A DNA stretch of 55,351 nucleotides from Microthrixaceae bacterium (GTDB lineage: Bacteria; Actinomycetota; Actinomycetes; Actinomycetales; Microbacteriaceae), in assembly GCA_020439065.1 (NCBI GenBank), contig JAGQTK010000001.1, positions 1 to 55,351 on the forward strand, in the 5' to 3' direction. This document shows, one piece after another, positions 4,208 through 27,453 of the stretch. The notes under the pieces were generated by a model. It was not told the DNA's origin, did no database searches, and was given only the letters and a program-made list of their open reading frames with translations. Both the position numbers and the translations under genes were made by a program. Position 1 is the stretch's first letter; each line of letters begins with the position of its first letter.

Positions 4208-4242
4208 GCGTTCAGTTCACCACAGACCGGGCGGAGACGAAG

Positions 4243-4346
4243 TGAGGGCCGGTCGGAGAGGCTTCCGACCGGCCCTTGTCCCTTTGCACCAAGAGTGTCC
4301 TGCAATCACATGTCCGGGAGCCGTCACAGCGAAAGACTTCCGACAC
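4243..4346 (-). ncRNA. putative ~100-nt structured small RNA or 5' leader of the 3884-4207 gene
   Basis: Minus-strand -10 TAGAGT (4352-4357); imperfect 5' stem (4310-4346); perfect 13-bp 3' stem AGGGCCGGTCGGA/TCCGACCGGCCCT (4245-4276). No family recognised. Confidence 0.5.
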
Positions 4347-4366
4347 GAAGCACTCTATAACAGTCC

Positions 4367-4395
4367 GATAACGAAGGGAAGGGTTTTTCGTTATC
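4367..4395. promoter_or_regulatory. inverted repeat GATAACGAA-N11-TTCGTTATC (operator and/or transposon target site)
   Basis: Perfect 9-bp arms overlapping the putative promoter; ends 17 bp before the transposon target duplication. Confidence 0.5.
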
Positions 4396-4417
4396 TCGTT
4401 GTGATCGCTCGTCTTGT

Positions 4418-4500
4418 TGTCCTGTCTCACCGGATCTGTAGAAATCTCATCTACCTGTAGAACGTCTCATCGGAGTTGTAGATTCTCACCCGAGTTGTAG
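4418..4500 (+). repeat. tnsA-proximal transposon end with four contiguous TnsB-type binding sites
   Basis: TCTCACCGGATCTGTAG (4425), TCTCATCTACCTGTAG (4445), TCTCATCGGAGTTGTAG (4465), TCTCACCCGAGTTGTAG (4484); about 20-bp spacing. Confidence 0.88.
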
Positions 4501-4611
4501 CTCGGCGGCGTGTTGTCGGTTCCGCGCCAGACAGCGGAGTAACTTTCGCGTCAAGTCAGGACCCGCACCGCGGAACACCTCCGCGGACTCCGGGGCCGAA
4601 CGGAGTCCGCA

Positions 4612-5355
4612 ATGACGCTGACAACCAACTGGCTTCAGGCGATCGATGGAACGAACGCCCTGGCGGCCACAATTCGATACTCGCTTCACGGGTTCGCTCG
4701 AGAATTGACACCGGCGGACGCTGGGGCGATCGCCTTCGAAGAGACGGCACCCGTCCGGAAATTCCCGGACTACCCACACAAGCGCAACGTTGAAGGCCGC
4801 TTCTGGCTCGCCTCGACGGGCCAGCACGTGCCCTTCGAGTCGTTCTGGGAGCGGGCGTTCCTGATGAGTCTCGATCGAACCCGGAGTGCGGAGGCGGTGT
4901 CGAGTCAGCCCATGTGGATTCATTGGCGCAGCCCGAAACGCCGCCATGCCCCCGACTACTTCGTTCGTCGCAAGGACGGCAGCGCGCTGCTTGTCGACGT
5001 CAGGGAGAGGTCAGACATCGAACCGGAGGATGCCGCAAAGTTCGAGCTCACCCGGAGGATGGCAGCTGCTCTCGGATGGGACTACCTCGTTTTCGACGAT
5101 CTACCCGGAGCGACCCAACAGAACCTGAGGTTTCTGCTGCGCTACCGTGACCCCCAGTGGCTCGAGGGCGTGGTTCTGGACGACCTGCCGGATTCTGGAA
5201 CGATTCGACTCGTCGACCTCGTCGCCCTCTTGGGAGACGTGAAGAACAGCGCACTTGGAGCGGCATACGCCCTTATATGGTCCGACGTCGCTCGATGCGA
5301 TCTCAGCCGTCCGCTGAGCATGTCCGCCACGGTCCGATTCGGGGTAGACCGATGA
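4612..5355 (+). CDS. tnsA: TnsA-like heteromeric transposase endonuclease subunit
   Basis: FESFWE, SQP and HAPDYF...LLVDVR PD-(D/E)xK-type motifs; first gene of the tns operon. Confidence 0.88.
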   Translation: MTLTTNWLQAIDGTNALAATIRYSLHGFARELTPADAGAIAFEETAPVRKFPDYPHKRNVEGRFWLASTGQHVPFESFWERAFLMSLDRTRSAEAVSSQPMWIHWRSPKRRHAPDYFVRRKDGSALLVDVRERSDIEPEDAAKFELTRRMAAALGWDYLVFDDLPGATQQNLRFLLRYRDPQWLEGVVLDDLPDSGTIRLVDLVALLGDVKNSALGAAYALIWSDVARCDLSRPLSMSATVRFGVDR

Positions 5356-7364
5356 TCGTCCATCCTGGCGACGTGGTGAGATGGAAGGACGAGGACCTGC
5401 AAGTCGTCGCTGTTCGGGCGACCTACACCACGCTGCGCAACGCAGAGATGGGCGAGGATCTCGAAGTGCTGAACGCCGATCTCGCTGAACGCGGCGAGCC
5501 GGCAACAGTGAGGTCGACGACCGACGTTTTGGATTTGGGCGTCCTTGACGAGCTCCCGCCCGCCGACCGCAGAGTCGTGGATGTCTGGCTCGAAGAGCTC
5601 GATCGACTCGCAGACCTCCTCGAAGGTGGGATGAAGAAGACGCCCGCCCACCAGGTGACCGTTGACCATGTGAATCGGCGACTTGGTACGGACTACAACG
5701 CGATAAAGGTGACGCGGCAGCTCGCCGCTCTCGACGAGTTCGGAGTCGCCGGGCTTCTCGATCGACGCCGATTCGGGATGGCGGACAGGCCCCGGTCGAC
5801 ACAGGATCCGCGTCTCATCGAAGCGATCGTCTCTGCGATGGATGGACAGACTCGAGCCTCAACCGGCACGGCAGACCGTCTGATCTGGATCGTGGAGCGG
5901 GACCTCGAGACCCGATACGGCAAAGGCGCGGTCGAGGTGCCGAGCAGGTCGACGATCTATCGCCTGATGGAACGCTTGGAAGCCGGACGGCACACATTCG
6001 GAACGGCGCGTACGCGCAGGACGACGGCAAACCAACCCAGCCACGTCTTCGGCAGTCGAACCGGTATGCGCCCCGGCGAGCAGGTACTGATCGACACGAC
6101 GCCGATGGAGATCCTCGTCGACTGCGACGGGGAGCAGGTACGTCCTGACCTCACGATCCTGCTCGACGAGTGCTCGCGAAGTGTTCCGGGGGCGATCGTG
6201 ACGATCGGCACGCGCAGCATCGATCTCGTTGTCCTGCTCGCCCGCGCTCTCGTCCCGTACGCCTACCGGCCCGAGGGCGTTCGCGCCAACCGTCGAAACA
6301 TCGCCCAAGCCTGGGTGGGAGACGACGCCCTCATTGCGCAACGCTTCGAGGACGCACGCGACGCGCAACAGTACATCTTCCCCGAGACCATCACCACAGA
6401 CCGAGGAGCATCCTATGTGTCGAGACACTTCACCGATGCATGTCGCACACTCGGCATCTCCCTGAACCTCGCGGCGGCATACACGCCTACTCAAAAGGCA
6501 AAGATCGAGCGCATGTTCCGCACGATCAAGAACCGCTTCACGCAGTACGTGGTCTCTTTTCTCGGCGAAAGCGCCGACATGCGCGGCGACGAGAGGTTCC
6601 CGACCGACCGGCTGCTCACGCTCGAACAACTGCAGGAGCTCCTCGAAGACTGGATCGCGGCAATCTGGCAGAACCGCCCCCACGGCTCGCTACGGGACCC
6701 ACGCCACCCGAAGTTCAAGCTCAGCCCGAATCAGATGGTGAGCGCATACCGGCAAGCCGTCCCCGAGCTGCTGATCCCACTCACCGCCGATCACTACATC
6801 GCACTGCTCCCAAAGAAATGGCGTGGAATCCATCACTACGGAGTGAACCTCGACCTCCGACGATACGACTCCGAAGCGCTGGGCACCCTGCGCAACAAGC
6901 GATCGCCTGATCGCCGGCACGCGGGTCAATGGCCGATTCACGTCGATCCATACAACCCCATGATCGTCTGGCTCCAACTCGAAGACGAGTTCATCCCCCT
7001 CAGCTGGCGATCCCCGTACTCGAATATGCCGATGGCCGATGAGATCTGGCGAATCGCACGCGCACAAGCCGCAGCGCGCGGTGAGGAAGCCCCGACGAAT
7101 GACGACCTGAACGAGGTCCTCCGCCGCTTCATGAGCACCGGCAACAAGTCCCTTACCTCACGCGATCGCAAGCGCGCGAAGTCGAACATGACAGACCCGC
7201 TCGGGATCACCAACCAGCTGGCGACGCTCTCCCCAGCATCTACGGACTCGGAGCGAGAGATCGCGCCGACCAGCAGCGACGACTCGACCGAAGAGGCTGG
7301 TGCATCCAGCTGGCCGGTGGCGCCTCCGTTCGGGCTCACGCGTCAAGCGGAAGGAACTGAGTGA
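5352..7364 (+). CDS. tnsB: TnsB-like DDE transposase (Mu-type C-terminal domain)
   Basis: ATGA overlap with tnsA; HTH PSRSTIYR; catalytic motifs LIDTT / TDRG / KIERMF; WQNRPH. Confidence 0.92.
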   Translation: MIVHPGDVVRWKDEDLQVVAVRATYTTLRNAEMGEDLEVLNADLAERGEPATVRSTTDVLDLGVLDELPPADRRVVDVWLEELDRLADLLEGGMKKTPAHQVTVDHVNRRLGTDYNAIKVTRQLAALDEFGVAGLLDRRRFGMADRPRSTQDPRLIEAIVSAMDGQTRASTGTADRLIWIVERDLETRYGKGAVEVPSRSTIYRLMERLEAGRHTFGTARTRRTTANQPSHVFGSRTGMRPGEQVLIDTTPMEILVDCDGEQVRPDLTILLDECSRSVPGAIVTIGTRSIDLVVLLARALVPYAYRPEGVRANRRNIAQAWVGDDALIAQRFEDARDAQQYIFPETITTDRGASYVSRHFTDACRTLGISLNLAAAYTPTQKAKIERMFRTIKNRFTQYVVSFLGESADMRGDERFPTDRLLTLEQLQELLEDWIAAIWQNRPHGSLRDPRHPKFKLSPNQMVSAYRQAVPELLIPLTADHYIALLPKKWRGIHHYGVNLDLRRYDSEALGTLRNKRSPDRRHAGQWPIHVDPYNPMIVWLQLEDEFIPLSWRSPYSNMPMADEIWRIARAQAAARGEEAPTNDDLNEVLRRFMSTGNKSLTSRDRKRAKSNMTDPLGITNQLATLSPASTDSEREIAPTSSDDSTEEAGASSWPVAPPFGLTRQAEGTE

Positions 7365-8455
7365 TGTTCGACGATCTGCTCGCCCAGTTCGACTTCGATG
7401 CCCCGACCGTGAACTTCGACTACACGACGAAGGAAGGATGGCGAGAGTTCGTCGAGTTCGATGCTCCACGACCCGCGCCTTGCACCATGAGCGAGTACGA
7501 AGCGATGGCCTCATCGGATCGATCCATCTACAACATCGCTCGCGAGCGCTTCATGTCAGTGGGTGCCCGTATCGCCACACCCTCACTTCGGAGATTCGTT
7601 GCGGCAGCCAGCAGCGCGATGGCCGACAATCGCTCGCCCGACGCGAGCAAATCCGGCGTCGTCATCTCCGGACGACCCAGCACGGGGAAGACGACGGCCG
7701 TCCAAGAATTCGGGCGAGCATATGAACGAGCTCGGCGAGAACGGGCAGGTACTCGAAGAAAGGACCTGATCCCCGTCGCTTTCGCTCAGGTGCCCACGCA
7801 CGCGACCGAGAAGACGATGATGAAAAAGCTTGCGGAGTTCTACGCGCTTCCGTTCTCTCAGACAGCATCGTACGAAACGCTGCTGGGGCGGGTGAGTAAC
7901 GTGATGCGAGCCTGTGAGACCGAGATCGTCATCATCGACGACATCCATCGCCTCGATCTGCGCTATCGCGCGAGCGAACAAGCGGCGGACGCGCTCAAGG
8001 AACTCTCGGAACGCTGCCCCGGAACGATGATCTACGCCGGAGTCAACGTCGCGCAGAACGGGCTCTTCTGGGGGTCGCGGGGAGAACAGATCATGGCCAG
8101 ATTCGAGACTGTCCAGTTCGACGAATATGACGTCGCAACAAACGAGGGAGCTGCGGTCTGGGGACGAGTCCTCACTGAACTTGAAGACTCGCTCTGTCTC
8201 ATCCGTCAGCATGAAGGCGACATTCTGAAGATTGCCGCGGAGCTTCGCGAAATCTCACGAGGATCGCTGGGACGCATGGCCAAGGCGATTCGCCGTTGCG
8301 CTCGCGATGCGATTCGTGATCGTTCCGAACAACTCGACCTGGACCATCTCCTGGTGGTTCTCGAGACGATACGGCGACTCGAAGATCGCGTAGCCGACGA
8401 AGCGGCACAGAGCACACGACGACCACGAGGGCGACGGGTGAAGGCTGGCCGATGA
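7361..8455 (+). CDS. tnsC: TnsC/TniB-like AAA+ ATPase
   Basis: Walker A GRPSTGKT, Walker B IIIDDIH; overlaps the tnsB stop. Confidence 0.9.
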   Translation: MMFDDLLAQFDFDAPTVNFDYTTKEGWREFVEFDAPRPAPCTMSEYEAMASSDRSIYNIARERFMSVGARIATPSLRRFVAAASSAMADNRSPDASKSGVVISGRPSTGKTTAVQEFGRAYERARRERAGTRRKDLIPVAFAQVPTHATEKTMMKKLAEFYALPFSQTASYETLLGRVSNVMRACETEIVIIDDIHRLDLRYRASEQAADALKELSERCPGTMIYAGVNVAQNGLFWGSRGEQIMARFETVQFDEYDVATNEGAAVWGRVLTELEDSLCLIRQHEGDILKIAAELREISRGSLGRMAKAIRRCARDAIRDRSEQLDLDHLLVVLETIRRLEDRVADEAAQSTRRPRGRRVKAGR

Positions 8456-9408
8456 GAGTGCTGCCGGCGACGGTCAGTCCGTTCCCGGGCGAAACCGTGC
8501 GGAGCCTTTACAACAGGCTCGTCGAACGCAACTCCCTGACGGCCGGAGAACTCTGGACCGCCATCCGCAAGTCGAAGCAGGGGCTTCCGTTGCGGACAAC
8601 GCCGGAGGCCGCCCCGGACGTGGTCGCGCAACTCGACGATCTGCCAGCGAACTGGTTCGACCGAGACGACACCACCCACCGACTCTTCAGCCGCTGCATC
8701 CACAACAACTGGGCCCGCGCGCAATGCCCGCGCTGTTCCCCGCTTCCCAAGCCGGTCACGATGTGTCGGCGGTGCTCGAGCGGGATGAACGTCGAGGTCC
8801 AATCTCGGGCCGGCGCCTTCTGCGCACGCCATAAGCGTTGGCACCGTGACGGACGCGACGAGGCGATCAGGATCCCCGTCGTATATGCCCGAGCAGAAAG
8901 ATGCCTCACCGGAACTCTATGGGCGCGTGGGATCGGCCTCGACACGGGCGAGATCGAGCTCGCCGGCGAAATCATCTCGACCTACCGTGAACTCGTCGAC
9001 GACGCTCTCTCCATCGGCGGCGCCGAGCAGCACATGCGTGACTTCTATCCTGAGGCTGTCGAACTGACCGCATTCCTCACGGCGCCTTCGATGCAGGCGT
9101 TCCTTCGCAACAGACAGATCGGGCACCTTCCCGTCGCCGCGATGGTCGAGGCAGCTGCGACGGCAGTCGCGTCGCGATCGCGGAACCAACTCGGCTCCGT
9201 GAATGAAATGTTCCAGGCCTCCGGCCGTGAACTACGACTCGGTGATTCAGCAACCAAGCCCCTGCGGCACGGGCGATCCCTTGAGATGGGGGCACTCGGC
9301 GTCCTGATCCGTGACAATGTCCCTCGCATTCGAGCGGTCTTTCTGCGCCACGACGACGCTCGTCGTCTATTGCCGACATTGCGCGACCAACCTTCACGCC
9401 ATCGATAG
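8452..9408 (+). CDS. tniQ: TniQ-like target selector 1
   Basis: N-terminal LPATVSPFPGETVRSLYNRL; Cys/His clusters CIH, CPRC, CRRC, CARH; follows tnsC. Confidence 0.75.
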   Translation: MRVLPATVSPFPGETVRSLYNRLVERNSLTAGELWTAIRKSKQGLPLRTTPEAAPDVVAQLDDLPANWFDRDDTTHRLFSRCIHNNWARAQCPRCSPLPKPVTMCRRCSSGMNVEVQSRAGAFCARHKRWHRDGRDEAIRIPVVYARAERCLTGTLWARGIGLDTGEIELAGEIISTYRELVDDALSIGGAEQHMRDFYPEAVELTAFLTAPSMQAFLRNRQIGHLPVAAMVEAAATAVASRSRNQLGSVNEMFQASGRELRLGDSATKPLRHGRSLEMGALGVLIRDNVPRIRAVFLRHDDARRLLPTLRDQPSRHR

Positions 9409-9413
9409 ACGCG

Positions 9414-10460
9414 ATGCGTACCCTGCCCATTTACGTCGCCCCGGTGCCCGCCGAAACGGTCAGTGGCTATATCGGGCGCATCGCCCAGACGCACTGCCTG
9501 GAGGTTGGGGAGATTCGTCGCATGCTGATTCGAGAGGCGGAGCGTTCAACGTGGAGAGAAAACGATCCACGCATCACGCTCGCGCTCGCCCGGCTCTGCG
9601 GCCTGCCCGATGATGCACTCGAGGTGTCCTTCGAAGACCACGGGATGTGGACTCGCTGCGGTCATCCGCGCTGGAAGCCCCAGAAGTGCCCGCGGTGCCG
9701 CACGCTCGCCGAACCACGCACTGCCTGCGTGGAATGTGCCGGTGGACTCACAACCACTACCCGAGCGAGAAGCGGACCTCTCTGCCTGAAGCATGGCCGT
9801 TGGACGCTTCGCGGACTGGACACCAAGGTCTCCGTTGAGGCGTCCGCGAGCCACGCGGAAGAGACCCTGCGCGGACCACTGTGGGAGCGCGGCATCGCCT
9901 TGCACACCGGCGAATACAACCTCGCGGCCGCAGCGGTACTCGCGTGGTCCCAAGGAAGTGACGGTGAGACGTTCCTCGAGGAGCGGGCCCAACGGCTCGG
10001 CCTCCCTGCACCGACCACGTTTGAGGAGGTGATGCTATGTGCCTATCCCGAAGTAGTGAGAGTTGTCGAAGTCGCCATGAGCCCACGGATACTCCGCGGC
10101 GTCCTCCAGGTGTCGCGATCGGCACTGCCGCAGATCGATGGCTTCGCGAACGTCATCGCAACTGTGCTGGGTGCAACCGTAAACGAGCGACTGCACGACT
10201 GGGCGGGCGCCGTCATCGGGCACGCGCACCGCGCGGTCCTCTACGCTGCGGGGCTCAGGCGAACCACGAGCGCCAAGAACGCTCTATGCCCGCAAGATCG
10301 CGCGCTCATCGTCGCGTCCGGTACTCAACGGGCATGCCTGCTCCGACACGTCTCGCCACGAATACTGGACGGACTCATGCGAGGCCACACTGAGGGCACA
10401 TCGCGGCTGAGCGTGACCAGAAGATATCCCCTGGAACCAGATGAGTTGGCTCTGCCCTGA
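9414..10460 (+). CDS. tniQ: TniQ-like target selector 2 (paralogue of 8452-9408)
   Basis: LPIYVAPVPAETVSGYIGRI; CGH, CPRC, CVEC, CLKH; shares LW.RGI.L.TGE and YPE.V with selector 1. Confidence 0.75.
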   Translation: MRTLPIYVAPVPAETVSGYIGRIAQTHCLEVGEIRRMLIREAERSTWRENDPRITLALARLCGLPDDALEVSFEDHGMWTRCGHPRWKPQKCPRCRTLAEPRTACVECAGGLTTTTRARSGPLCLKHGRWTLRGLDTKVSVEASASHAEETLRGPLWERGIALHTGEYNLAAAAVLAWSQGSDGETFLEERAQRLGLPAPTTFEEVMLCAYPEVVRVVEVAMSPRILRGVLQVSRSALPQIDGFANVIATVLGATVNERLHDWAGAVIGHAHRAVLYAAGLRRTTSAKNALCPQDRALIVASGTQRACLLRHVSPRILDGLMRGHTEGTSRLSVTRRYPLEPDELALP

Positions 10461-10648: not shown

Positions 10649-12056
10649 GGTGACGTCCCGCTGAGTGGTGGAGAATCTCAACACCGTGCGGTCAGTGCTT
10701 TTTGATTATGCCGCGTTGAGTTCCGGGATCGCCACCTCCTCGTCGTTCGCGAACAGGAGCTTCATGGAGTGTTCGCTGAAGTAGCGGCGGTCGGCGCCGT
10801 CCCATTCGTCGTGCTGCTCGATCAGGACGTGCCCTGCGAGGCGCAGCAACGCGGCGGGGTTCGGGAATGTGCCGACGACGTCGGTGCGGCGTTTGATCTC
10901 CTTGTTCACGCGTTCCAGGGGGTTCGTGGACCAGATCTGCCGCCAGTGCTGTTGCGGGAATCCGCAGAACGCGAGGATGTCATTCTTCGCGTCCTCGAGC
11001 ATGTCCGCGATCTTCGGATGTGACCGGGTCAGCATCCGGACGACTTCGTGGAACTGGGCGAAGACGTGCTCGGTGTCTGGTTAGGCGAAGATCGTGCGGA
11101 TGATCGAGGCGACCATCGGACCTGACGCTTTCGGGACGTTGGAGAGCACGTTGCGCATGAAATGCACCCGACACCGTTGCCAGGAAGAGCCAGCGAACAC
11201 GGTCTCGATCGCGGAGATCAGACCCGTGTGGGCGTCGCTGATGACGAGCTTCACACCATCGAGTCCGCGGGCCTTCAAAGAACGCAGAAAGCTCGTCCAG
11301 AACGGCTGCGATTCGGTCTCTCCAACCTCGAAACCCAAGACCTCGCGGCGCCCATCGGCGGCGACACCAATGGCAACGACAACGGCCTGAGAGACCACTC
11401 GCCGGCCAACCCTGGCTTTGCAGTAGGTCGCGTCGAGAAACACATACGGATAGGTCGTGTCAGCCAGCGCACGGTCACGGAATGCGGCAACGTCCTCGTC
11501 CAGGTTCGCGCAGATCCGTGACACCTCGGACTTGCTGATCCCGGTATCGGCGCCGAGAGCTTTGACGAGATCATCGACCTTTCTCGTGCTCACGCCGTGA
11601 ACATAGGCCTCCATCACCACCGCAAACAGTGCCTGATCGACGCGGCGGCGCCGCTCCAGCAGCGAGGGGAAGAAGGACCCCTGTCGCAGCTTCGGGAGCC
11701 GCAACTCCAGGTCCCCGGCCGTCGTGGTCAGGGTGCGCGGGCGGGTGCCATTGCGTTGCGTGATTCGCTCAGCGCTGCGCTCGAATGGGGCGGCGCCGAT
11801 GAACGCGGCCGCTTCCGCATCGATCAGTTCCTGATAGAGCGTTTCGGTCGCGACACGGATCCGGTCGGTGACATCGGTGAGTTTCAGCTCCCCGAGAAGC
11901 TCGAGGAGGGCAGACTGGTCTAGAGCCATCGTGCTTTGTGTCTTTCTGTGAGAGAACTTTGATCGGTACTTCTCACTGACCATCGCACGATGGCTCACCC
12001 ACGTCTACGACGCAAACAACCCTGCCGAATCCTCCACCACTCCACGGGACGTCACC
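10649..12056 (-). mobile_element. IS256-family insertion sequence
   Basis: Terminal inverted repeats GGTGACGTCCCG..GAGTGGTGGAG; 8-bp TSD CTTCCTGG at 10641-10648 and 12057-12064. Confidence 0.93.
10706..11929 (-). pseudogene. IS256 transposase with an internal nonsense codon
   Basis: Mutator-type motifs (FLDATY, ISDAH, WQRCRVHF, STNPLERVNKEIKRR); in-frame TAA at 11081-11083 in IFA*PDT, likely CAA>TAA. Confidence 0.88.
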
Positions 12057-12277: not shown

Positions 12278-12835
12278 GTGCTGCCCATCCCGATGACAGG
12301 CGGTCGCGTCGCGGGAAGGCCCGTGCAAGCGACCGCGATTGTGATGGTTGACATGCCCGAGTCGTACCCGATCTGGTGGCAGGAAATCGACTCGCCGCCG
12401 CCAGCCGAGTGGCTGTTCATGTTCGAGGACTTCACCAGTGACGACACGGCAGAGCAATGGGCGCTGGCCGCGGCGATCTTCATCGCCCAAACTCGCCGCC
12501 GCACAGCCGCAGGCCCCACATTCGCTGAACTCTTCACATACCTCTTGCCGGACACAGACGGGCTCCCCGGCCCGCTGCCGCGAAACCTAGACTTCATGCA
12601 GCGCCGCCGCGCCGTTGCGGGCTTCCGCGGCCACGCGGCAATCGAATGGCGCCGGCGAGGAATGATCAGCTTCGACAACGGCGTCATGCGCAGCCTGCGC
12701 GTGGGACGCGAGTTTCGCGAGCGGTCGAGGCATCGCCAACAGGCCCGGGAAGCCACACGCCATCAGTGCGAAACCGATCGCGAACCGAGCTCGGAACTCA
12801 CGGTCATGACCGCCATCACGGAACGAGAAGGTTAA
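12278..12835 (+). CDS. hypothetical protein with LexA-like winged-helix features (start uncertain)
   Basis: GPTFAELF...WRRRGMISFDNGVMRSLRV resembles the LexA N-terminal DNA-binding domain; no peptidase domain. Confidence 0.6.
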   Translation: MLPIPMTGGRVAGRPVQATAIVMVDMPESYPIWWQEIDSPPPAEWLFMFEDFTSDDTAEQWALAAAIFIAQTRRRTAAGPTFAELFTYLLPDTDGLPGPLPRNLDFMQRRRAVAGFRGHAAIEWRRRGMISFDNGVMRSLRVGREFRERSRHRQQAREATRHQCETDREPSSELTVMTAITEREG

Positions 12836-12836
12836 C

Positions 12837-13082
12837 TTGACCGAGGAATATCCGCCGGAACTCCAGGGCCTTCTCAAGCGGATCGCTCCAGGCTGGCCAG
12901 AACTGCTGGAAGTCGGAGCCGGCTGGTACCCGCTGCTGACCAGACTCGATGCGACACTGTCGGTCATCGCCCCGAAATACGTCGTACAGCAGGTGAAATC
13001 GAAGTTTGGCGCCCTAAACTTCTACGCCGACCCGTCTGATGACCCGTCGAGCTTCGATGAGGCATTTACGGAGGCGGTGTGA
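12837..13082 (+). pseudogene. hypothetical protein truncated by IS3
   Basis: VGAGWYPLL...QVKSKFGALNFY; the stop codon is supplied by the first bases (TGA) of the IS3 end. Confidence 0.65.
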
Positions 13083-13121
13083 GGCTGACCCCGATTCCCG
13101 GACAGGTGGTTGGTTGGTTGG

Positions 13122-14003
13122 TCAGGCTGCCAGCGCGAGCTGGCGTCGTTCGTACTCTAACGGGCTGAGGTAGCCGATGCTCGAGTGGCGTCGGCGAGCG
13201 TTGTACCAGCCGTCGATCCAGACGTAAGCGCCGCGTCGAGCGGCGTCGATCGTGGCGAAGGTGTGCCGGTGGTAGTACTCGTTCTTGAACGTGGACCAGA
13301 ACGATTCCGCGGCGGCGTTATCCCAGCACACCCCGGTGCGACCCATCGACCGCAGCACGCCAAGCTCCTTCGCTGCTTTCGCGAGCTGCGCGCTGGTGTA
13401 CTGGGTGCCTCTATCTGCGTGGAAGATCACCTTCCGCGGCAGGTGACCGCGCAGCGCGACCGCCTGGCGCAGTGCGTCTTCGACGAGGTCGGTATGCAGA
13501 CTGTCAGCGACAGTCCGGCCGAGGACGCGGCGGGTGTTCCCGTCCCTGACGACACACAGAAACGCCCATCCCTCACCGGTATGCAAATACGTGATGTCGG
13601 AGAACCAAGCGACGTCGCGTTCGCCCCTGTCGAACTGCCGCTCCACCAGGTCGGGAACCGGGAACGGATCCTCACCATGGACGGTCGTCGGTGGATGCCA
13701 AGTGGCGGGGCTGATCCCCGTGACGCCGTCTGCCTGCATGAGTTTCGCGACCGTCTTGCGCGAGACCACCACCCCGGCGTCCTGCAGATCTGCATGGATT
13801 CTTGGCGCCCCATAGGTCCCGTCGGACGCGGCATGGAACTCGCGGATCCGCACCGTCAGGTCCGCGGCTCGCTGCTGCCGTGGCGACGGGCCGGCAGCTA
13901 TCCGGGTCCGCCACTCGTAGTACCGGCGCCGGTCCACCCCGAGCAGCGCACACATCCGTGTCACCGTTATCGTCGTCTGTTTGGCCTTCTCCGCCTCGAT
14001 CAC
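13122..14003 (-). CDS. IS3 transposase OrfB (rve integrase core)
   Basis: YGAPRI, WFSDITY, HADRGTQY, DNAAAESFW, YNARRRHS. Confidence 0.92.
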   Translation of the reverse strand: MIEAEKAKQTTITVTRMCALLGVDRRRYYEWRTRIAAGPSPRQQRAADLTVRIREFHAASDGTYGAPRIHADLQDAGVVVSRKTVAKLMQADGVTGISPATWHPPTTVHGEDPFPVPDLVERQFDRGERDVAWFSDITYLHTGEGWAFLCVVRDGNTRRVLGRTVADSLHTDLVEDALRQAVALRGHLPRKVIFHADRGTQYTSAQLAKAAKELGVLRSMGRTGVCWDNAAAESFWSTFKNEYYHRHTFATIDAARRGAYVWIDGWYNARRRHSSIGYLSPLEYERRQLALAA

Positions 14004-14314
14004 CGCGAACCGCTCCTCGGGTTCTGCTTCGATGCGAAGAAGGCCGCCGCTTTTCCCAGGAACTCGTTGTCCATCCGCAGATCCTGATTCTCGCGGCGTA
14101 ACCGTTCCAGCTCGGCGCGCTCGTTCAGATCCAGCAACGTGTCGGTCTCAACGCCTGTGCGCGCTCGTTCGGCGTGCACCCACCGGCCCAACAGTTGCTC
14201 ACCGACGCCGATCTCGCGCGCTACCGCCGCGACGGTCCGGCCCGTGTCGATCACCAGACGCGCAGCCTCACGGCGATACTCCGGCGTGTATGTCTTTCTC
14301 TTGCTCGTGCCCAT
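14000..14314 (-). CDS. IS3 transposase OrfA (HTH); probable -1 frameshift into OrfB
   Basis: YTPEYRREAARLV HTH; ELERLRREN zipper; GGGAAAA slippery-like site at about 14051-14057. Confidence 0.9.
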   Translation of the reverse strand: MGTSKRKTYTPEYRREAARLVIDTGRTVAAVAREIGVGEQLLGRWVHAERARTGVETDTLLDLNERAELERLRRENQDLRMDNEFLGKAAAFFASKQNPRSGSR

Positions 14315-14391
14315 CAAGGACATCCTCCCCGACAGGCCCGCAAACACACGGATCCCGCCTGGTCAATGTCCGGAATCCGGGGGCAACCTCA

Positions 14392-15725
14392 ACCTCAGCG
14401 GACTGGTTGCTTTGCGACGGCAAGACGGCATGCGTTCCCTCGCGTCGGACATCCTCCGAAGAATGCCGGCCGAGCTCACGGCACGAGACCGCAGCCTTCG
14501 TAGCGACGCCAAGCATCTGGCGGATGCGGTGCTCGCCGGGGCTGACTACTTCGTGACGCGGGACGAGACCTTCCTCGCCGCGACCGCGAGCTGGTCACGC
14601 GAAGAGTACGCGATCGATGTTCTCCGGCCAGTTGATCTTCTCAGGACATTCATTCCGCCGTCCGCTCCAACGGAGTTCCGCTCAGGACGACTCGAGTCGG
14701 TCGGACTTCGCTGGGAAGAAGTGACGGCATCATCCTCTGGTCTCGAGGAGGTGTTCGTCGAAGTTCATAAAGGCGAGAAGGGCAAGCAGTTCCGGAAACG
14801 GCTTCATGCCGTTCTTGCGAGACCTGCTAGTGCGAGGATCGACCTGCTGGTTGACGAGCGAGGGCGGAAACGTGCCCTGCTCTCGGCCGAGGTCCGCGGT
14901 GACGTGCTGTCGGTTGCGGTGATCCGCGTCGCGCGGGGATCACTTGGCGGCACCATCGCGTTTCAGCTCACACGATACCTTCGGGCGTTGGCATTGGAAC
15001 GAGGCGCGACGGCCGTTGAGGTCGTCGACGACGTGGTCGATGAAGTGCTTCGAGCCGCCCTGGTCGCAGATGGTTTCGAGGGGGCGCCCCTCGCGGTGAA
15101 ACTAGGTCGTCACCCTCGCGCGGCCCAGACTGAGTCGCTAGAGACCCCAGGCGCGGTCGCTGACTACGAGCGAAAGAACTGGCTCCAGATCGTGCTCGAC
15201 AAAGCTGTTCCAGTGCGCATCGTGCCTATTCAACCGCGGTATGCGCGCGAGCTCCTCGGGTTCAATGACACGCTGATCCAGCTGCGCGAACGCCCTGCGC
15301 TGGGGCTCGCCCGCGAGTTCGTCTACTTCGCTGCACCGAAGATGAGACACTGGGACATCCCGACTCGCGTGCTTTGGTACGTGACCAAAGATCCCAGGGC
15401 GCGAGAAAGTAGCGCCGTCCGAGCTGTGGTGGCACACTCCCGCGTACTCGATGCTGAAGTACTGGACGTCCAGGACGCGGCTGAGAAGTATCGATCACTC
15501 GGCGTCCTGCACCGAGGCGAGATCCAAGGTCATGCGATTGACGGAAAGGTGCTTGTGCTGAGGTTCGAAGACACGCAGGTGCTTGACCAGCCCGTCGGCA
15601 AGCGCTCGTTCGACGCGCTGCTCCGCATGCACGGAACCACGACGTCGCTACTCACGACACGTACCGGCGCTCCCGGTCTTTTCGACGACCTCATCCGCAC
15701 GCAGCCAGGATGGGAAGGCAGATGA
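14392..15725 (+). pseudogene. 5'-truncated PIN / GNAT-like / ASCH-EVE-like multidomain protein
   Basis: Frame starts at the IS3 end; C-terminal half of a PIN domain (DAKHLADAVLAGADYFVTRD); GNAT-like middle; PUA-like tail (IVPIQPRYA, VYFAA, VLWYV). First ATG at 14430. Confidence 0.65.
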
Positions 15726-16162
15726 AAAGGGCGCTGCTCATCTCAGTGAAACCACGATACGCGCGCGCGATTCTCGAAGGACGAAAAACCGTCGAGGTGC
15801 GACGGCGATTCCCAGAGGTGCCACCCGGCACCACAGTTGTTCTGTACTCCAGCTCCCCGGAGAGAGCGGTTCTGGGTACTGTGCGCCTCAAGCAAACAAG
15901 CACAGTTCCTTCCGACCGCGTCTGGGAGATGCACTCCGATGCGATCGGCATCGCCGAAGACGCGCTCGGCGAGTACCTTGATGGCGCCGAAGCCTCCACT
16001 CTGCTTGAAGTGGAGGACCCGAAAACGTGGGCACGGCCTGTCTCGTTGGCGTCCTTGCGGACTCTACTTGGCCTTGAGCCGCCTCAGAGCTTCCGCTATC
16101 TCGATGCGGATCAGGTGGCTCTGATCGCGACCAGCGGATCAGAGAGCCTACCGGCGTCCTAG
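15722..16162 (+). CDS. ASCH domain protein
   Basis: LISVKPRYARAILEGRKTVEVRR (GxKxxExR), LYSSSP, PPQSFRY; ATGA overlap with the upstream gene. Confidence 0.88.
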   Translation: MKRALLISVKPRYARAILEGRKTVEVRRRFPEVPPGTTVVLYSSSPERAVLGTVRLKQTSTVPSDRVWEMHSDAIGIAEDALGEYLDGAEASTLLEVEDPKTWARPVSLASLRTLLGLEPPQSFRYLDADQVALIATSGSESLPAS

Positions 16163-16207
16163 TACGCGTGCGTGGCTAGTGTCGGTGCAAGCTGAGAGAC
16201 TTCCCTC

Positions 16208-17218
16208 ATGACCTTTCGCACCGCTGATGGCGCAAGCTATGAGGGACGTGACGAATCAGGGAATGAGACGTTTCGCGTCTCTATACCGTCTGACGAGCAC
16301 GGCTACTTCGGACGCGAGTGCCCAGCATGCCAGCAGATCTTCAGGATGCATCTAGACGACTACAAGGCGCTTCCCGATGATCTGATCCTGACCTGTCCGT
16401 ACTGCGGACATCAAGAGGAGCACACAAGCTTCGTGACCTCGCAGCAGCAAGAACGTGTGATGCGCGTTGCTCAGGATGCCGCGATGCAACTCATATCCGA
16501 GGCCTTCGGAGGTCTCGGACGATCAGGCAGAAGCAACAAGTTCGTGAAGATCACCTACAGGTCGACGCCCTTCTACCCTCAGCCTCTCCCAGATCTGGAC
16601 GAGGAGCGGCTTGTCAGGGAGCGTACGTGTGTGACGTGCGGTATCCGCTATGCCGTCTTTGGCGAGCATTCGTTCTGCCCCGTCAGCGGAGCTCTCGATG
16701 CAGGCGAGGTCGCCCGCGATGCGCTGGGAGCGGAAGCCGCGAAGCTGAGCGCGCTCGACAGCATTCCCGGCCCTCAACGAGCCGCCTTAAGAGAGCAAGG
16801 AGTGTTCGATCGTATTGCAGTCGACACGCTCAGCAGAGTCGTGGGCGTCATTGAGCGCTTGGCGCGGGCTGAGTTCGAACGCCGCGTCGAACCTGCGGGT
16901 CAACTCCTGAAAGGAAAAGGCAACGTCTTTCAGAGGCTGGATGACCTGGCGGACCTGTACTCCGCTCACCTGGATATCGATCCGCGACTCGTTCCAGATG
17001 TCGACTGGGTTCTCCTCGCGAAGCTTTGGGCAACACGTCACGCGCACGTGCACGCAGGTGGGCTTGTCGATACGAAGTATCTGCAGGTCGTGAACTACTC
17101 ATCGCTGAAGGTGGGTCAGCGAATCGTCGTGACCGCAGACGACGCCCGAAACGCAATCGGACAGGCGATGATCCTCTGCTCTATCTTGGCTGGACAGGAT
17201 GCCTCGGATCTCGCCTGA
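16208..17218 (+). CDS. Zn-ribbon plus HEPN-like hypothetical protein
   Basis: CPAC, CPYC, CVTC and CPVS motifs; C-terminal RHAHVHAGGLVD (Rx4H). Confidence 0.6.
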   Translation: MTFRTADGASYEGRDESGNETFRVSIPSDEHGYFGRECPACQQIFRMHLDDYKALPDDLILTCPYCGHQEEHTSFVTSQQQERVMRVAQDAAMQLISEAFGGLGRSGRSNKFVKITYRSTPFYPQPLPDLDEERLVRERTCVTCGIRYAVFGEHSFCPVSGALDAGEVARDALGAEAAKLSALDSIPGPQRAALREQGVFDRIAVDTLSRVVGVIERLARAEFERRVEPAGQLLKGKGNVFQRLDDLADLYSAHLDIDPRLVPDVDWVLLAKLWATRHAHVHAGGLVDTKYLQVVNYSSLKVGQRIVVTADDARNAIGQAMILCSILAGQDASDLA

Positions 17219-17250: not shown

Positions 17251-17351
17251 CTGACAACTCGGGTGAGACAGATTGGCGGTCGCGTCAGCGATTCCGCGTG
17301 ATTCCGGTGATCGTTCGTCTCATCTGATGACGACTCTCGCGAGAACGGACA
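17251..17351 (-). repeat. internal copy of the tnsA-distal transposon end
   Basis: CTGACAACTCGGGTGAGACA, TGATTCCGGTGATCG and CGCGAGA.CGGACA are shared with 27280-27384. Confidence 0.85.
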
Positions 17352-17749: not shown

Positions 17750-18940
17750 TCAGGTCGTGAGCGGGTGCTCGGCGTGGCTCACGCCGGCCCGAAGGCGACG
17801 TCCGGGCAGGTTGAGCCAGGTGAGTGCGAGTCCCACGATCGTCCAGATGCCGAGAAGAAGCCATTGATTGGCGACGGCCGCGTCGGGGAAGTACGACAGG
17901 TTGCGGATGAGCGTCGCTGCGGCTCCCGGCGGCAGCCACTGGCCGATCGCGCCCCATGGGGATGCGATGAATTCGACCGGGACGGCGGCCGCCGAGAGCG
18001 GGTTCGCCACCAGCATCATGAAGGCGGCACCGACACCGGATCCGGCGGGGCCGATGAGGCCTGCGAGTCCGGTGATCGTGCTGGCGATGGCGGCGATGGC
18101 GAGCCCGAGAGCCGCGCTGTTGAGAAGGTAGTTGCCCTGCAGTGCGCCGAACATCCCCTGCAGCACTCCGGCGAGCACCAGGCCGGCTGCCGCGGCGTAG
18201 ACGACCACGCCGACGATGCGACGACCGCCGCCGCCCTTGAGGAGGGTCGTGAGCCCGATGCCGCCGATCATTCCACCGAGGATGATCGGGAACAGCGCAG
18301 AGGCGAGTCCCGCACCCCGTGAGTCGGTGTCGGCGAACGGCACGATGTCGGTGACCTTGACCGTCACGGTCGGGATCGAGATCGGGGTCGTCGCGCTCGC
18401 GTCCGGAAGCTGGGGAGCCTGGCCCTGCAGTGCCGCCTGGATCGCTGCCTGCATCGCGGCTGCGGCCTTCTCCTGGGCTGCAGCGAGGTTGCTCTCGACC
18501 GTCGTGCGGATCTGAGTGTCGATCTGCGTCTGCAGCTGCTGCGAGAGGCCGTCCATGAGCTGTGCGACCTGGGCATTCGCTGCCGTCGCCTTCAGGATCT
18601 CGGGAGCGTCGGTGGGCGTGGCGCCGAGGACGATCGCGCCATAGGCGTGACGCTCCTTGATCGCCTTCACCGCGGCGTCCCGGTCGTCGTACTGGGTGAG
18701 GGCGATCGCGCCGTCGGACTGCTCGGCGACGGCATCGCCCATCTGCTCGACCTGCGCGGACGTGCCCACGATGCCGACCGGCAGGTCGTGGGGCGACGCC
18801 GTGACCGCGGGCCAGGCGAAGGCAAGAAGCACGATGCCGACGATGAGGGACAGGGCGACGGCGATGATCGGCACGCGGATCCACGGCGTCGCAGCGCTCG
18901 CCTCGGGATCGACGACCGGTGAAGCGGTGTCGGTGGTCAT
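17750..18940 (-). CDS. ABC-2/YhgE-like membrane protein (permease)
   Basis: N-terminal TM, PHDLPVGIVG, extracytoplasmic domain, about 5 C-terminal TMs, WLPPGA. Confidence 0.75.
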   Translation of the reverse strand: MTTDTASPVVDPEASAATPWIRVPIIAVALSLIVGIVLLAFAWPAVTASPHDLPVGIVGTSAQVEQMGDAVAEQSDGAIALTQYDDRDAAVKAIKERHAYGAIVLGATPTDAPEILKATAANAQVAQLMDGLSQQLQTQIDTQIRTTVESNLAAAQEKAAAAMQAAIQAALQGQAPQLPDASATTPISIPTVTVKVTDIVPFADTDSRGAGLASALFPIILGGMIGGIGLTTLLKGGGGRRIVGVVVYAAAAGLVLAGVLQGMFGALQGNYLLNSAALGLAIAAIASTITGLAGLIGPAGSGVGAAFMMLVANPLSAAAVPVEFIASPWGAIGQWLPPGAAATLIRNLSYFPDAAVANQWLLLGIWTIVGLALTWLNLPGRRLRAGVSHAEHPLTT

Positions 18941-18959
18941 GGGGAAGCTCCTTTAAAAA

Positions 18960-18973
18960 CGAATGATCGTTCG
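18960..18973. promoter_or_regulatory. putative TetR operator
   Basis: Near-palindrome CGAATGATCGTTCG in the divergent intergenic region, next to TATACT (18975-18980). Confidence 0.5.
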
Positions 18974-19020
18974 CTATACTGAACCTTAGTACGATGATTG
19001 TCAACCTGGAGCCGGAGACG

Positions 19021-19659
19021 ATGCCGAAGATCAGTGACGAGCAACGCGACGCGAGACGCACCGAGATCATGAATGCTGCGCTGCGTTGCTTCGTGCGCTC
19101 GGGATACCAGCAGACCTCGATGGCCGACATCATCGCCGAGTCGGGGCTGTCCGCCGGCGCGATCTACAGCTACTTCTCGAGCAAGCAGGAACTCATCCGC
19201 GACGTCGCCGCCGGCGTGTTGGCGAACCGGCGCAGCGAACTCATCGCCGCGCAGCAGGATCACGTCCTGTCTCCGGCGGAGATCATCACGACGATCGCCG
19301 CCGGCTTCGGCAAGGACGCCCCGATCGAAGCACTGATCCAGACCTGGGCCGAAGCCACGGTCGATCCGGAGGTGCGAGATCTCGTGTTGAATGCGCTTGC
19401 CACGATGCGGACGGTCATCGTCGGCGCGCTGGCTCGGTGGGCAGAGAGCTTGCCCCGGCTGCCGGAAGGATGGGCCTCGGCTGAGGACTGGGCCGAGGTG
19501 AGTGCACCTGTGTTGATGAGCGTCCTGCCCGGCTTCGCCCTGCAACGCGCCATCGTCCCCGGATTCGACACCGCCCGCTTTCTCGACGCGCTCCCGACGT
19601 TGCTTCCGGGCCGCCCCGTACTGGCGACACGTTCTCACGCACCATCGCTGCCTGACTGA
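19021..19659 (+). CDS. TetR/AcrR-family regulator
   Basis: TSMADIIAESGLSAGAIYSYFSSK HTH. Confidence 0.92.
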   Translation: MPKISDEQRDARRTEIMNAALRCFVRSGYQQTSMADIIAESGLSAGAIYSYFSSKQELIRDVAAGVLANRRSELIAAQQDHVLSPAEIITTIAAGFGKDAPIEALIQTWAEATVDPEVRDLVLNALATMRTVIVGALARWAESLPRLPEGWASAEDWAEVSAPVLMSVLPGFALQRAIVPGFDTARFLDALPTLLPGRPVLATRSHAPSLPD

Positions 19660-19685
19660 GTCGGCAGCACTGAAAGGAGACGACG

Positions 19686-20366
19686 ATGAGGTTTCTGCTC
19701 CGCCACTGGTACGACCTGGGTCTCGCGCTCGCGATCGCCACTCTCGTGTGGCAGGCGTTCGCACAATATGACGGGCTTCGCCTGATCCTGCTGCTGAACC
19801 TCGTGGTGATCTCCCTCCATCAGTACGAGGAGTATCACTGGCCCGGGGGAGGCCCGTGGATGATCAACGTGGTTCTCGGCACGAAAGACGCCACGGTCGA
19901 CAGATACCCGCTGAACCAGCTCAACGCGTTGCTGAACAACTTCGTCCTGTGGCTCCTCTACCTGCTGCCCGTGATCTGGCCTGAGACGATCTGGCTCGGC
20001 CTCGGCGCGGTCCTCGTGGGTTTCGGCCAGCTGTTCGCGCACGGCGTGCAATGCAACATCAAGCTCAAGACCTGGTACAACCCCGGGCTCGCCACCGTCA
20101 TCATCGGCCACGTCCCGCTGGGTATCTGGTACCTCGTGGAGGTGTACCGCAACGACCTCATCAGCGGATGGGACTGGGTCGGGGCCATCGCCTACGTCCT
20201 GGTCGTCATGGGGATCATCGTCGGGGTGGGGTTCGTTCTGATGGGCAACAAGACCTCCCCTCATCCGTTCGCACGAGAGGAACTCGTCAGGTCGAACGCG
20301 GTGCGGCACCTCACCCGACTGGGGATCGCTCTGCCCGAAGCGCTGCTCCCCGAGTCGCATGCTTGA
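19686..20366 (+). CDS. HXXEE-domain membrane protein
   Basis: LHQYEEY motif, FAHG, YNPGL; multiple TMs; RBS GAAAGGAG. Confidence 0.85.
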   Translation: MRFLLRHWYDLGLALAIATLVWQAFAQYDGLRLILLLNLVVISLHQYEEYHWPGGGPWMINVVLGTKDATVDRYPLNQLNALLNNFVLWLLYLLPVIWPETIWLGLGAVLVGFGQLFAHGVQCNIKLKTWYNPGLATVIIGHVPLGIWYLVEVYRNDLISGWDWVGAIAYVLVVMGIIVGVGFVLMGNKTSPHPFAREELVRSNAVRHLTRLGIALPEALLPESHA

Positions 20367-21420
20367 GCTGGCAGAGCAGTTGCTCCCGATTCTGCACGCG
20401 GGAACGCGCGTCGCGGCGATCTCGGTGACGAGGGTCGCCCAAAGTGCGCCTCGCGGCGTCGGGGCGAGCATGGCGGTGACGGCTGACGGGAAGGTCATCG
20501 GCTCCATCTCCGGTGGCTGCGTCGAAGGCGACGCCGTCATGCTGGGACTGAGGGTTCTGCGCGAGGGGATCGGGCGGACCGCGAGTTTCGGGTTCGATGA
20601 CGAAGCCGCCCACGCCGCCGGGCTCGCGTGCGGCGGTGCGATCGACGTCGTCGTCTATCCCGTCACGCGGGAGCATGTCCCGATTCTCGAGCGAGTCGTC
20701 GACGGCGAGGCGGCAGCGATCGGTGTCTACGCTTCCGGCCCTCGGTGCGGCCAGACGGTGATGAGTCCGCCTGCGTTCGCCGCATCCGCTGTCGCGGGGC
20801 GCGAGAGCGTGCTGTTTCCCGCCGAGAACGAGCAGGCCGCCGATCTTCTGCTGCTTTCACGAGCGCCGCGTCCCCGGCTCATCATCCTCGGCGCCGGGGA
20901 GCATGGGGCTGCACTCTGTCGGATCGCTGCGGCCGCGGGCTACGCGGTATCGGTCTGCGACGCGTGGGGCACGCTCGTGACGCGCGACCGGTTCCCTGAC
21001 GCCGAGCAGCTCATCATCGACCTGCCGCACGAATATCTGGCCACGCTTAGGCCCGGGGATGTCGATGCGCGCACGGCGGTCTGTGTCCTCACGCACGACG
21101 AGCGAGTCGACATCCCCGCGCTGCAGCTCGCGTTGAGGATGCCCGTCGGGTTCGTTGGCGCGCTGGGTGCGCGTCGAACGGCGGCCCATCGGGAAACCGT
21201 GCTGCGACGATCAGGTCTGGATGAAGACGCGATCGCGCGGCTCCACTCGCCACTGGGGCTCGACCTCGGCGGATCCAGTCCCGTCGAGACTGCGCTGTCG
21301 ATCCTCGCTGAGATCACTTCTTCTCGGTACGCCGGGTCGGGGCTACCGCTTCGTGACCTTTCGGGTTCTCTGCATCATGACGTCGGCATCGAAGCGGATA
21401 GCCGGAGGCTGGTCGGATGA
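20359..21420 (+). CDS. xdhC: XdhC/CoxI-family molybdenum-cofactor chaperone
   Basis: GSISGGCVE, GLACGG, LTHD, LHSPLGLDLG. Confidence 0.9.
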   Translation: MLELAEQLLPILHAGTRVAAISVTRVAQSAPRGVGASMAVTADGKVIGSISGGCVEGDAVMLGLRVLREGIGRTASFGFDDEAAHAAGLACGGAIDVVVYPVTREHVPILERVVDGEAAAIGVYASGPRCGQTVMSPPAFAASAVAGRESVLFPAENEQAADLLLLSRAPRPRLIILGAGEHGAALCRIAAAAGYAVSVCDAWGTLVTRDRFPDAEQLIIDLPHEYLATLRPGDVDARTAVCVLTHDERVDIPALQLALRMPVGFVGALGARRTAAHRETVLRRSGLDEDAIARLHSPLGLDLGGSSPVETALSILAEITSSRYAGSGLPLRDLSGSLHHDVGIEADSRRLVG

Positions 21421-25829: not shown

Positions 25830-25888
25830 TCGTCGTTCAACCCACCAAAGGAAGCGCCGCCACGCGGCATCGACACACGGAGGTACTG

Positions 25889-27279: not shown

Positions 27280-27384
27280 CTGACAACTCGGGTGAGACAA
27301 ATCAAAGCAGGAGGGCGTTCGAGATCTCGGATGATTCCGGTGATCGCGCGTCTCACTTCGTGACAGTTGTCGCGAGATCGGACA
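27280..27384 (-). repeat. tnsA-distal end of the Tn7-like element
   Basis: Spaced inverted TnsB-type sites; ends GAGATCGGACA followed by TSD CTTGT. Confidence 0.88.
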
Positions 27385-27389
27385 CTTGT

Positions 27390-27453
27390 TGTCCGATCTC
27401 ATCGGAGCTGTCCATTCCTCACGCACCTGTCACAACTTCTCATCGAGCCAGGT
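27390..27453 (+). mobile_element. tnsA-proximal-type end of an older, decayed Tn7-like element
   Basis: TGTCCGATCTCATCGGAGCTGTC, CCTCACGCACCTGTC, TCTCATCGAGCCAGGTC; starts immediately after the TSD; no tns genes follow. Confidence 0.75.

What the first reader, a model, noticed from the sequence alone, without database searches (positions are those of the whole stretch)
4418..10460. Cas-less Tn7-like transposon with two tandem paralogous TniQ-like proteins
Seen: intact tnsA-tnsB-tnsC-tniQ1 linked by 4-bp overlaps, then tniQ2 5 bp later. The two proteins (318 and 348 aa) share the N-terminal LP..P..ET motif, four Cys/His clusters, LW.RGI.L.TGE and YPE.V. No cas gene, array or tnsE was seen. Established: TniQ/TnsD proteins select targets, and dual-selector systems such as type I-B CAST pair a short TniQ with a long TnsD. 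Inference: two similar-sized paralogues may act as a heterodimer, possibly on the two arms of the nearby inverted repeat, or may give two protein-guided pathways. This is the best candidate for an undescribed system in the window.
Basis: partly seen in the sequence, partly recalled or inferred. Interest (0 to 1): 0.85.

Follow-up and report, generated by a model that had tools for sequence, protein, structure and literature searches.

The report
Two-target Tn7-like transposon of Microbacterium
A jumping DNA element of Microbacterium bacteria carries two related targeting proteins and is found again and again at two fixed spots, just upstream of a likely small-RNA gene on the chromosome and beside a likely DNA-transfer gene on plasmids; it likely uses one protein for each spot, a CRISPR-free way to both settle and spread.

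Summary
Observation confirmed. tnsA-tnsB-tnsC-Q1-Q2 is intact in a 22,967-bp Tn7-like element (4418-27384) with TGT/ACA ends and a CTTGT target duplication. Q1 and Q2 are old paralogues (30% identical), both under purifying selection, and always paired in the window's clade. Dual tniQ loci are already surveyed (Faure 2023); the targets are what is new. Clade ends lie 60-63 bp from a direct repeat in the promoter of a predicted ~110-nt RNA that is core in Microbacteriaceae and absent from Rfam (21 ends, one orientation). Six more lie at one site upstream of a plasmid ftsK gene. One genome holds the identical 11,064-bp element at both sites, each with its own duplication. No Cas, array or TnsE was found. 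Best model (0.5): two protein-guided pathways, Q2 for the chromosome, Q1 for the plasmid site. Against it: four Q1-only elements sit at the chromosomal site, and single-Q2 elements also reach the plasmid region, from the other side. A heterodimer is neither supported nor excluded. New variant of a known kind; interest 0.68.

The parts
4240..4345 (-). Host gene predicted to be a ~110-nt small RNA (5' hairpin with conserved GCUGUG loop, invariant core at 4286-4309, terminator hairpin 4245-4276); not in Rfam
   Evidence: present in 82 of 82 near-complete genus genomes and 21 of 21 family genomes; expression not shown
4352..4357 (-). Predicted -10 box (TAGAGT) of that RNA
   Evidence: last T of the TAnnnT hexamer invariant in 98 of 98 copies while the middle varies
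4356..4372 (.). Conserved 11-bp direct repeat TATAAC-N6-RTAAC (GlnR/MtrA-box-like on the - strand); best anchor for insertion distance, likely att determinant
   Evidence: box consensus in PMC10704036 Table 2
4367..4395 (.).
   Evidence: absent by pattern in 6 of 21 occupied sites with the same spacing
4413..4417 (+). Target-site duplication CTTGT, first copy
4418..4500 (+). tnsA-proximal end: TGT plus four closely spaced TnsB-site-like repeats; faces the att site
4612..5355 (+). tnsA (actinobacterial TnsA-like subfamily)
5352..7364 (+). tnsB, DDE transposase
7361..8455 (+). tnsC, AAA+ regulator (TniB family)
8452..9408 (+). tniQ1, 318 aa, derived paralogue; candidate plasmid-site selector (inferred)
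9414..10460 (+). tniQ2, 348 aa, ancestral type shared with single-TniQ relatives; candidate chromosomal-site selector (inferred)
10649..12056 (-). IS256-family insertion with 8-bp duplication; transposase ORF interrupted by a stop
12344..13082 (+). Two accessory ORFs (163 aa; 81 aa, cut by an IS3) that follow tniQ in some relatives; not needed by the subclade that uses both targets
13080..14391 (-). IS3-family insertion
14392..17218 (+). Cargo with PADLOC candidate-defence matches (PDC-M11A weak, PDC-M11B/ASCH, PDC-M14A)
17252..17351 (-). Internal second distal end (ends ACA; followed by TCAGC, not the duplication), then a 55-bp tnsB remnant at 17380-17434
17750..26566 (.). Cargo: ABC-2 permease, TetR, two HXXEE proteins, xanthine-dehydrogenase-like cluster
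27281..27384 (-). Distal end of the element (spaced TnsB-site-like repeats, ends ACA)
27385..27389 (+). Target-site duplication CTTGT, second copy
27390..27450 (+). Remnant tnsA-proximal end of an older relative (clade-B type) at the same insertion point
   Evidence: compared with ends

Best explanation
This is a Cas-free Tn7-like transposon whose copies sit at two fixed targets, upstream of a predicted small-RNA promoter on the chromosome and upstream of an ftsK gene on plasmids, and it likely uses its two TniQ proteins as separate selectors, Q2 for the chromosome and Q1 for the plasmid site. Shown from sequence: the genes, ends, 5-bp duplications, both target classes, fixed spacing and orientation, one element at both targets, the old duplication and selection on both genes. 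From established Tn7 biology: TniQ marks the target, recruits TnsC, and TnsAB insert at a set distance. Inferred: that the two sites reflect two pathways, which protein serves which, that the RNA is transcribed, that the plasmids are conjugative, and whether the TniQs read DNA directly or dock on a host or plasmid protein bound there.
For: Chromosome: 21 clade-A ends at 60-63 bp (SD 0.79) from the TATAAC motif, all in one orientation, with differing flanks; that motif is a tighter anchor than the RNA core. Plasmid: six clade-A-type ends (L031, L038, L100, L135, L137, L189) at 89-105 bp downstream of a conserved CTTGAC-N4-GTGRTA motif beside a FtsK/SpoIIIE gene, four with matching 5-bp duplications; empty versions of the site exist (L203, L204, L209). 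Genome G526 has one 11,064-bp element, 0 mismatches, at both sites with duplications GGCGT and CAGAG; L135 (plasmid site) and L139 (chromosomal site) are 7,186-bp near-minimal elements, 94.8% identical. The plasmid site does not match the chromosomal motif (all matrix scores negative), so a second specificity is needed. Q2 groups with single-TniQ elements, several of which use the chromosomal site; Q1 forms its own clade (98 SH-aLRT). Only Q1-bearing end types were seen at the downstream plasmid position (6 ends); single-Q2 ends lie on the other side, in the other orientation (3 ends). Both genes keep the N-terminal P/E/R and Cys/His residues and have dN/dS 0.15-0.54 and 0.16-0.24.
Against: Four Q1-only elements (L059, L061, L063, L065; no Q2 remnant found) sit at the chromosomal site at 65-72 bp, so a Q1-type protein, or Q2 supplied in trans, can reach it. 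Single-Q2 elements reach the same plasmid intergenic region without Q1 (L101, L038, L205; 62, 71, 62 bp from a TATCAC motif). No intact clade-B dual element was found at the plasmid site. Three clade-A ends lie at neither target (L021, L130, L181). The plasmid sample is small, and three of the six ends share one base position. Neither protein has the long C-terminal extension that known att-reading TnsD proteins have. Nothing was assayed.
Confidence: 0.5

Rival explanations
1. Q1 and Q2 work together (heterodimer or cooperative pair) and both are needed for either target.
For: In clade A the pair is never split: 12 of 12 untruncated metagenome elements found by TnsC carry both, as do 13 genome elements; order is fixed; the att motif is a two-unit direct repeat; clade-A spacing is unusually tight (SD 0.79).
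Against: Single-Q2 and Q1-only relatives use the same chromosomal site; dual clade B and related ends are loosely spaced (58-72); the inverted repeat is dispensable.
Confidence: 0.2
2. Both TniQs are adaptors for one kind of host feature, such as a promoter bound by a GlnR/MtrA-type regulator or by RNA polymerase, found at both sites; the second copy only widens spacing, orientation or host range.
For: Both proteins are core-sized, which Faure et al. call a hallmark of TniQs needing a partner; the att motif matches GTnAC-n6-GTnAC; single-Q2 ends sit 62-71 bp upstream of a -10-like motif on plasmids too; both protein types reach the chromosomal site.
Against: Dual-type ends at the plasmid site lie downstream of that promoter, in the opposite orientation, with no att-like motif at the right distance; only one chromosomal promoter is used out of very many.
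Confidence: 0.2
3. Q2 does all targeting; Q1 is a modulator (regulates TnsC, or gives a relaxed, near-random pathway).
For: 26 single-Q2 relatives exist without Q1; Q1 is more divergent, below the Pfam cut-off, and some members have lost the first Cys/His cluster; three off-target ends exist.
Against: Q1-only elements are site-specific; the downstream plasmid position was seen only with Q1-bearing end types; Q1 is under purifying selection.
Confidence: 0.1

Closest known systems
Dual TniQ-TnsD Tn7-like loci (Faure et al. 2023, PMC10293859)
   Same: Tandem tniQ-family genes after tnsC, arisen by duplication; proposed two modes of targeting.
   Different: There one protein is usually over 400 aa and the small one needs a Cas or other partner. 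Here both are 300-350 aa, no encoded partner was found, and two actual targets are mapped. Microbacterium and Actinobacteria were not found in the text passages or the three supplement files searched, though loci may be listed there by accession only.
Tn7 (TnsD/glmS plus TnsE/plasmids)
   Same: TnsABC core, 5-bp duplication, safe chromosomal site plus plasmid route, closely spaced end facing the att site (PMC11406308).
   Different: No TnsE or glmS; the plasmid route goes to one fixed site rather than to replication structures; the chromosomal site is upstream of a promoter of a predicted small RNA.
Two-TniQ CASTs (type I-B1, I-B2, I-D, Tn7017) and cyanobacterial tRNA-targeting elements with an unexplained second TniQ (PMC9881144)
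   Same: Two TniQ-family proteins for two pathways; Hsieh and Peters hypothesised that the second serves horizontal transfer.
   Different: No Cascade or array; no long TnsD; a defined plasmid site is seen here.
Tn5053 family
   Same: A small TniQ thought to target a fixed functional site on plasmids (res sites; PMC11406308 Table 1).
   Different: Tn5053 has one TniQ and no chromosomal pathway; this element has TnsA, two TniQs and a site beside ftsK.
Tn6022/AbaR (TniQ plus TnsF/Orf3, comM)
   Same: Small TniQ, protein-guided chromosomal targeting.
   Different: The second gene here is itself a TniQ paralogue; no comM, no TnsE.

Membership tests
Tn7-like transposons | TnsA endonuclease, DDE TnsB, AAA+ TnsC in an operon | tested here: met
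Tn7-like transposons | TniQ-family selector: Q2 | tested here: met
   PF06527 32.3 bits, cut-off 27; best fold match TniQ 8fcu_P, Z 6.3, rmsd 2.5, 70 aligned
Tn7-like transposons | TniQ-family selector: Q1 | tested here: inconclusive
   PF06527 20.5 bits, below cut-off; fold matches to TniQ chains Z 4.4, tied with unrelated rows; Foldseek top four all TniQ structures but E 0.08-0.6; homology to Q2 E 1e-32
Tn7-like transposons | TGT/ACA ends with repeated TnsB sites and 5-bp target duplication | tested here: met
Tn7-like transposons | Oriented insertion at a fixed distance from a conserved site | tested here: met
   21 ends at 60-63 bp; genomic evidence only
Tn7-like transposons | TniQ- and TnsC-dependent transposition activity | not testable with these tools
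   needs an assay
CAST | cas effector genes and array or guide in the element | tested here: not met
   near-minimal L135 has only one further ORF over 100 aa on the + strand (not scanned)
Canonical Tn7 | TnsE and glmS attachment site | tested here: not met
   no TnsE family among 25 ORFs scanned; site is not glmS
Dual TniQ-TnsD loci (Faure 2023) | Two tandem tniQ/tnsD genes from a duplication | tested here: met
Dual TniQ-TnsD loci (Faure 2023) | One member over 400 aa (usual, not strict) | tested here: not met
   318 and 348 aa; clade-A pairs 312-320 and 348-368 aa
Tn5053 family | Single TniQ, targets plasmid res sites | tested here: not met
   two TniQs and TnsA; plasmid site lies beside ftsK
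GlnR/MtrA-bound promoter (att determinant) | GTnAC-n6-GTnAC box bound by the regulator | not testable with these tools
   sequence resembles the box; binding untested

The most novel reading that the evidence does not exclude
A Tn7-like element that has replaced both TnsD's DNA-reading extension and TnsE/Cas with two core-sized TniQs that hitch onto proteins it does not encode: one docks on a host regulator bound at the promoter of an undescribed, family-wide small RNA, the other on a plasmid protein complex at the transfer locus, giving site-specific plasmid boarding.
Probability: 0.2. Interest if true: 0.9.

Novelty: new variant of a known kind. Interest (0 to 1): 0.68.

Why it matters
What the second TniQ does in Cas-less dual-TniQ elements is an open question (PMC10293859, PMC9881144). 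This family makes it directly testable: a five-gene element, natural single-gene relatives of both types, two mapped targets, and one element caught at both. It would add a new kind of Tn7 safe site (upstream of a small-RNA promoter) and a fixed-site plasmid pathway without TnsE or Cas. It also marks a hot spot that builds tandem islands in Microbacterium (44 of 400 genomes match the family) and points to a predicted core small RNA of Microbacteriaceae missing from Rfam. The compact system could serve as a site-specific integration tool for this group.

Tried and rejected
Q1+Q2 complex prediction gave no verdict (score 0.00 twice, controls not folded) and is used neither way. Foldseek found no match at E<=0.001 for either model; the C-terminal halves found no clear fold match, which does not show a new fold; Atlas hits for Q2 140-348 were all under 0.9. 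Expression of the RNA: no RNA holder listed; four guessed-RNA runs gave only contigs, at least two probably DNA. Rfam at E<=1 gave only terminator-like chance matches. Recent tandem duplication: rejected, AU p 0.0002 for holding clade-A Q1 and Q2 together (quick tree, 29 chosen rows). Inverted-repeat arms as binding sites: rejected. Accessory ORFs as obligatory partners: rejected, found in 16 loci but not in L022-L031 or L135/L139. Viral contigs: none. A loose end pattern was mostly chance; of 18 stricter matches in 17 loci read, six continued into further end repeats. A shared motif for the two targets: none found. Earlier scan findings: none. One Cas family search of the own genome was negative but the genome is 69% complete.

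Full report
1. Observation. The five ORFs, their overlaps and sizes are as described. Q1 and Q2 share 30% over 226 aa. Family scans give TnsA, DDE TnsB, TniB-type TnsC and TniQ; Q2 passes the Pfam cut-off, Q1 does not. Predicted models are confident (pLDDT 83 and 92), and their best fold matches are TniQ/TnsD chains but weak. No other copy of these genes is in the own assembly, which is 69% complete.

2. The element. It starts with TGT at 4418 and four close repeats, and ends with ACA at 27384; CTTGT flanks both ends. An internal distal end at 17351 and a tnsB scrap suggest a composite. An older relative's end begins at 27390, so the same point was hit twice. Cargo includes two IS elements, candidate defence genes and a xanthine-dehydrogenase-like cluster. 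No cas gene, array or TnsE family was found in the ORFs scanned.

3. The family. Q1 matched 44 of 400 other genus genomes and 7 of 400 family genomes, two of them weak hits with stops; named relatives are Microbacterium. I fetched loci for all genus hits except G623 and G705, and for five of the seven family hits. With L001, L002 and the window this gave 13 clade-A dual elements (one broken), 10 clade-B duals, one element with two Q1-type genes, 4 Q1-only and 26 single Q2-type elements (one broken); L024 is truncated, L067 and L068 are broken, and four distant loci were set aside. An independent TnsC search of metagenomes gave 15 loci: 12 carry both genes and 3 are cut by contig ends. All first-position proteins form one clade, and second-position proteins group with the singles (98 SH-aLRT). 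All dual and Q1-only elements share one TnsC branch (91). So one old duplication and a later loss of Q2 in one lineage are inferred; the trees are quick trees with midpoint roots. Both genes are under purifying selection (8 pairs each).

4. Chromosomal target. Most elements sit beside a conserved host cassette. It has a TAnnnT box in 98 of 98 copies, a 5' hairpin (92 of 97 copies z<-1.5), an invariant core and a terminator with compensatory changes in 6 of 14 pairs. I read it as a ~110-nt small RNA on the - strand; transcription is not shown. It occurs in 82 of 82 near-complete genus genomes, 21 of 21 family genomes and 1 of 279 others, a 2-mismatch hit; Rfam has no family for it. Of 100 distinct copies in my loci, which are enriched for occupied ones, 48 carry an end: 21 clade-A ends at 60-63 bp from TATAAC, 17 clade-B-like at 58-72 and 10 single-type at 53-92. 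Insertion is upstream of the promoter and leaves the cassette intact. The conserved repeat resembles a GlnR/MtrA box (PMC10704036). Matching duplications were found for 9 of 32 elements checked; 17 had no distal end detected in the DNA held and 6 had a non-matching end (some read across adjacent fetched stretches).

5. Plasmid target. Six clade-A-type ends lie 89-105 bp downstream of CTTGAC-N4-GTGRTA, upstream of a FtsK/SpoIIIE gene. In an annotated plasmid this is the gap between an M23-peptidase/conjugal-transfer operon and ftsK; 80 plasmid records, mostly actinobacterial, hold relatives of that FtsK. The motif occurs 11 times in 10 of 391 genomes, each time near an ftsK homologue: 4 with a clade-A end, 2 with a decayed end, 5 empty. 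G526 carries the identical 11,064-bp element at the chromosomal site and at this site, with different duplications, so two transposition events. L135 and L139 show the same for a 7,186-bp near-minimal element. Single-Q2 elements enter the same region from the other side (L101, L038, L205). Of the remaining clade-A ends, 3 directly follow another element's end and 3 are elsewhere. The function of the plasmid site (promoter plus hairpin, perhaps a transfer or partition locus) is not established.

6. Mechanism. By known Tn7 biology a TniQ marks the site, recruits TnsC, and TnsAB insert at a set distance (PMC11406308). Two unlike targets and two conserved selectors suggest one each. Q2 is assigned to the chromosome because its single-copy kin go there; Q1 to the downstream plasmid position because only Q1-bearing end types were seen there. 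The Q1-only elements at the chromosomal site and the single-Q2 elements on plasmids argue against a clean split, so I give this 0.5; heterodimer 0.2, shared host-protein adaptor 0.2, modulator 0.1.

7. Known versus new. It meets the Tn7-like tests and belongs to the surveyed dual tniQ class, but lacks the usual long partner, Cas and TnsE. I found no paper on this family, these two targets or the RNA in eight searches; the library lacks most subscription papers. Seen as passages: PMC10293859 (plus a search of 3 supplement files), PMC11406308, PMC9881144, 10.1101/2025.07.27.667033, PMC9151340, PMC10704036; the rest as listings only. Supplements of the preprint and accession-only tables in Faure et al. 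could include these loci. The labels 'clade A/B', 'Q1/Q2 type' and '-10 box' are mine.

8. Verdict. Real, and more informative than first read: a new variant of a known kind, interest 0.68.

Noticed in passing
window 4240-4345 (-); L071-L099, L102-L125: Predicted ~110-nt small RNA cassette, core in Microbacteriaceae, in variable gene context and sometimes duplicated (L075, L080, L083); no Rfam family.
   Followed up: partly
L189:9905-10149; L100:8162-9376: Non-autonomous mini-elements (245 bp and about 1.2 kb) with clade-A ends and 5-bp duplications at the plasmid site.
   Followed up: partly
L027, L040, L047 (att +74 to +78); L132:3993-12073: Single-TniQ elements insert 12-15 bp inside the end of a resident dual element; two dual elements stand in tandem sharing one duplication. 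Target immunity seems weak between lineages.
   Followed up: partly
L200-L210: Conserved promoter-plus-hairpin motif upstream of plasmid ftsK, with short direct repeats nearby and a ParB-C-like gene adjacent in L101; possible transfer or partition locus.
   Followed up: partly
window 12344-12835: Accessory ORF travelling with many elements; by eye it resembles a LexA-type winged helix (recalled, no family hit).
   Followed up: partly
window 14392-17218: Cargo matching PADLOC candidate systems PDC-M11A/B and PDC-M14A; the first gene appears cut by the IS3.
   Followed up: no
L130:3980-3997: A clade-A end sits inside what looks like a tRNA 3' fragment (by eye), an off-target or a third site.
   Followed up: no
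L062:3698-5767: Element with two Q1-type genes and no Q2, inserted inside an ORF.
   Followed up: no
window 36439-36523 (-): ARAGORN calls a tRNA-like gene with a four-base anticodon (cttg).
   Followed up: no
L003, L004: Distant Streptomyces Tn7-like elements with one TniQ followed by an HTH-containing gene.
   Followed up: no
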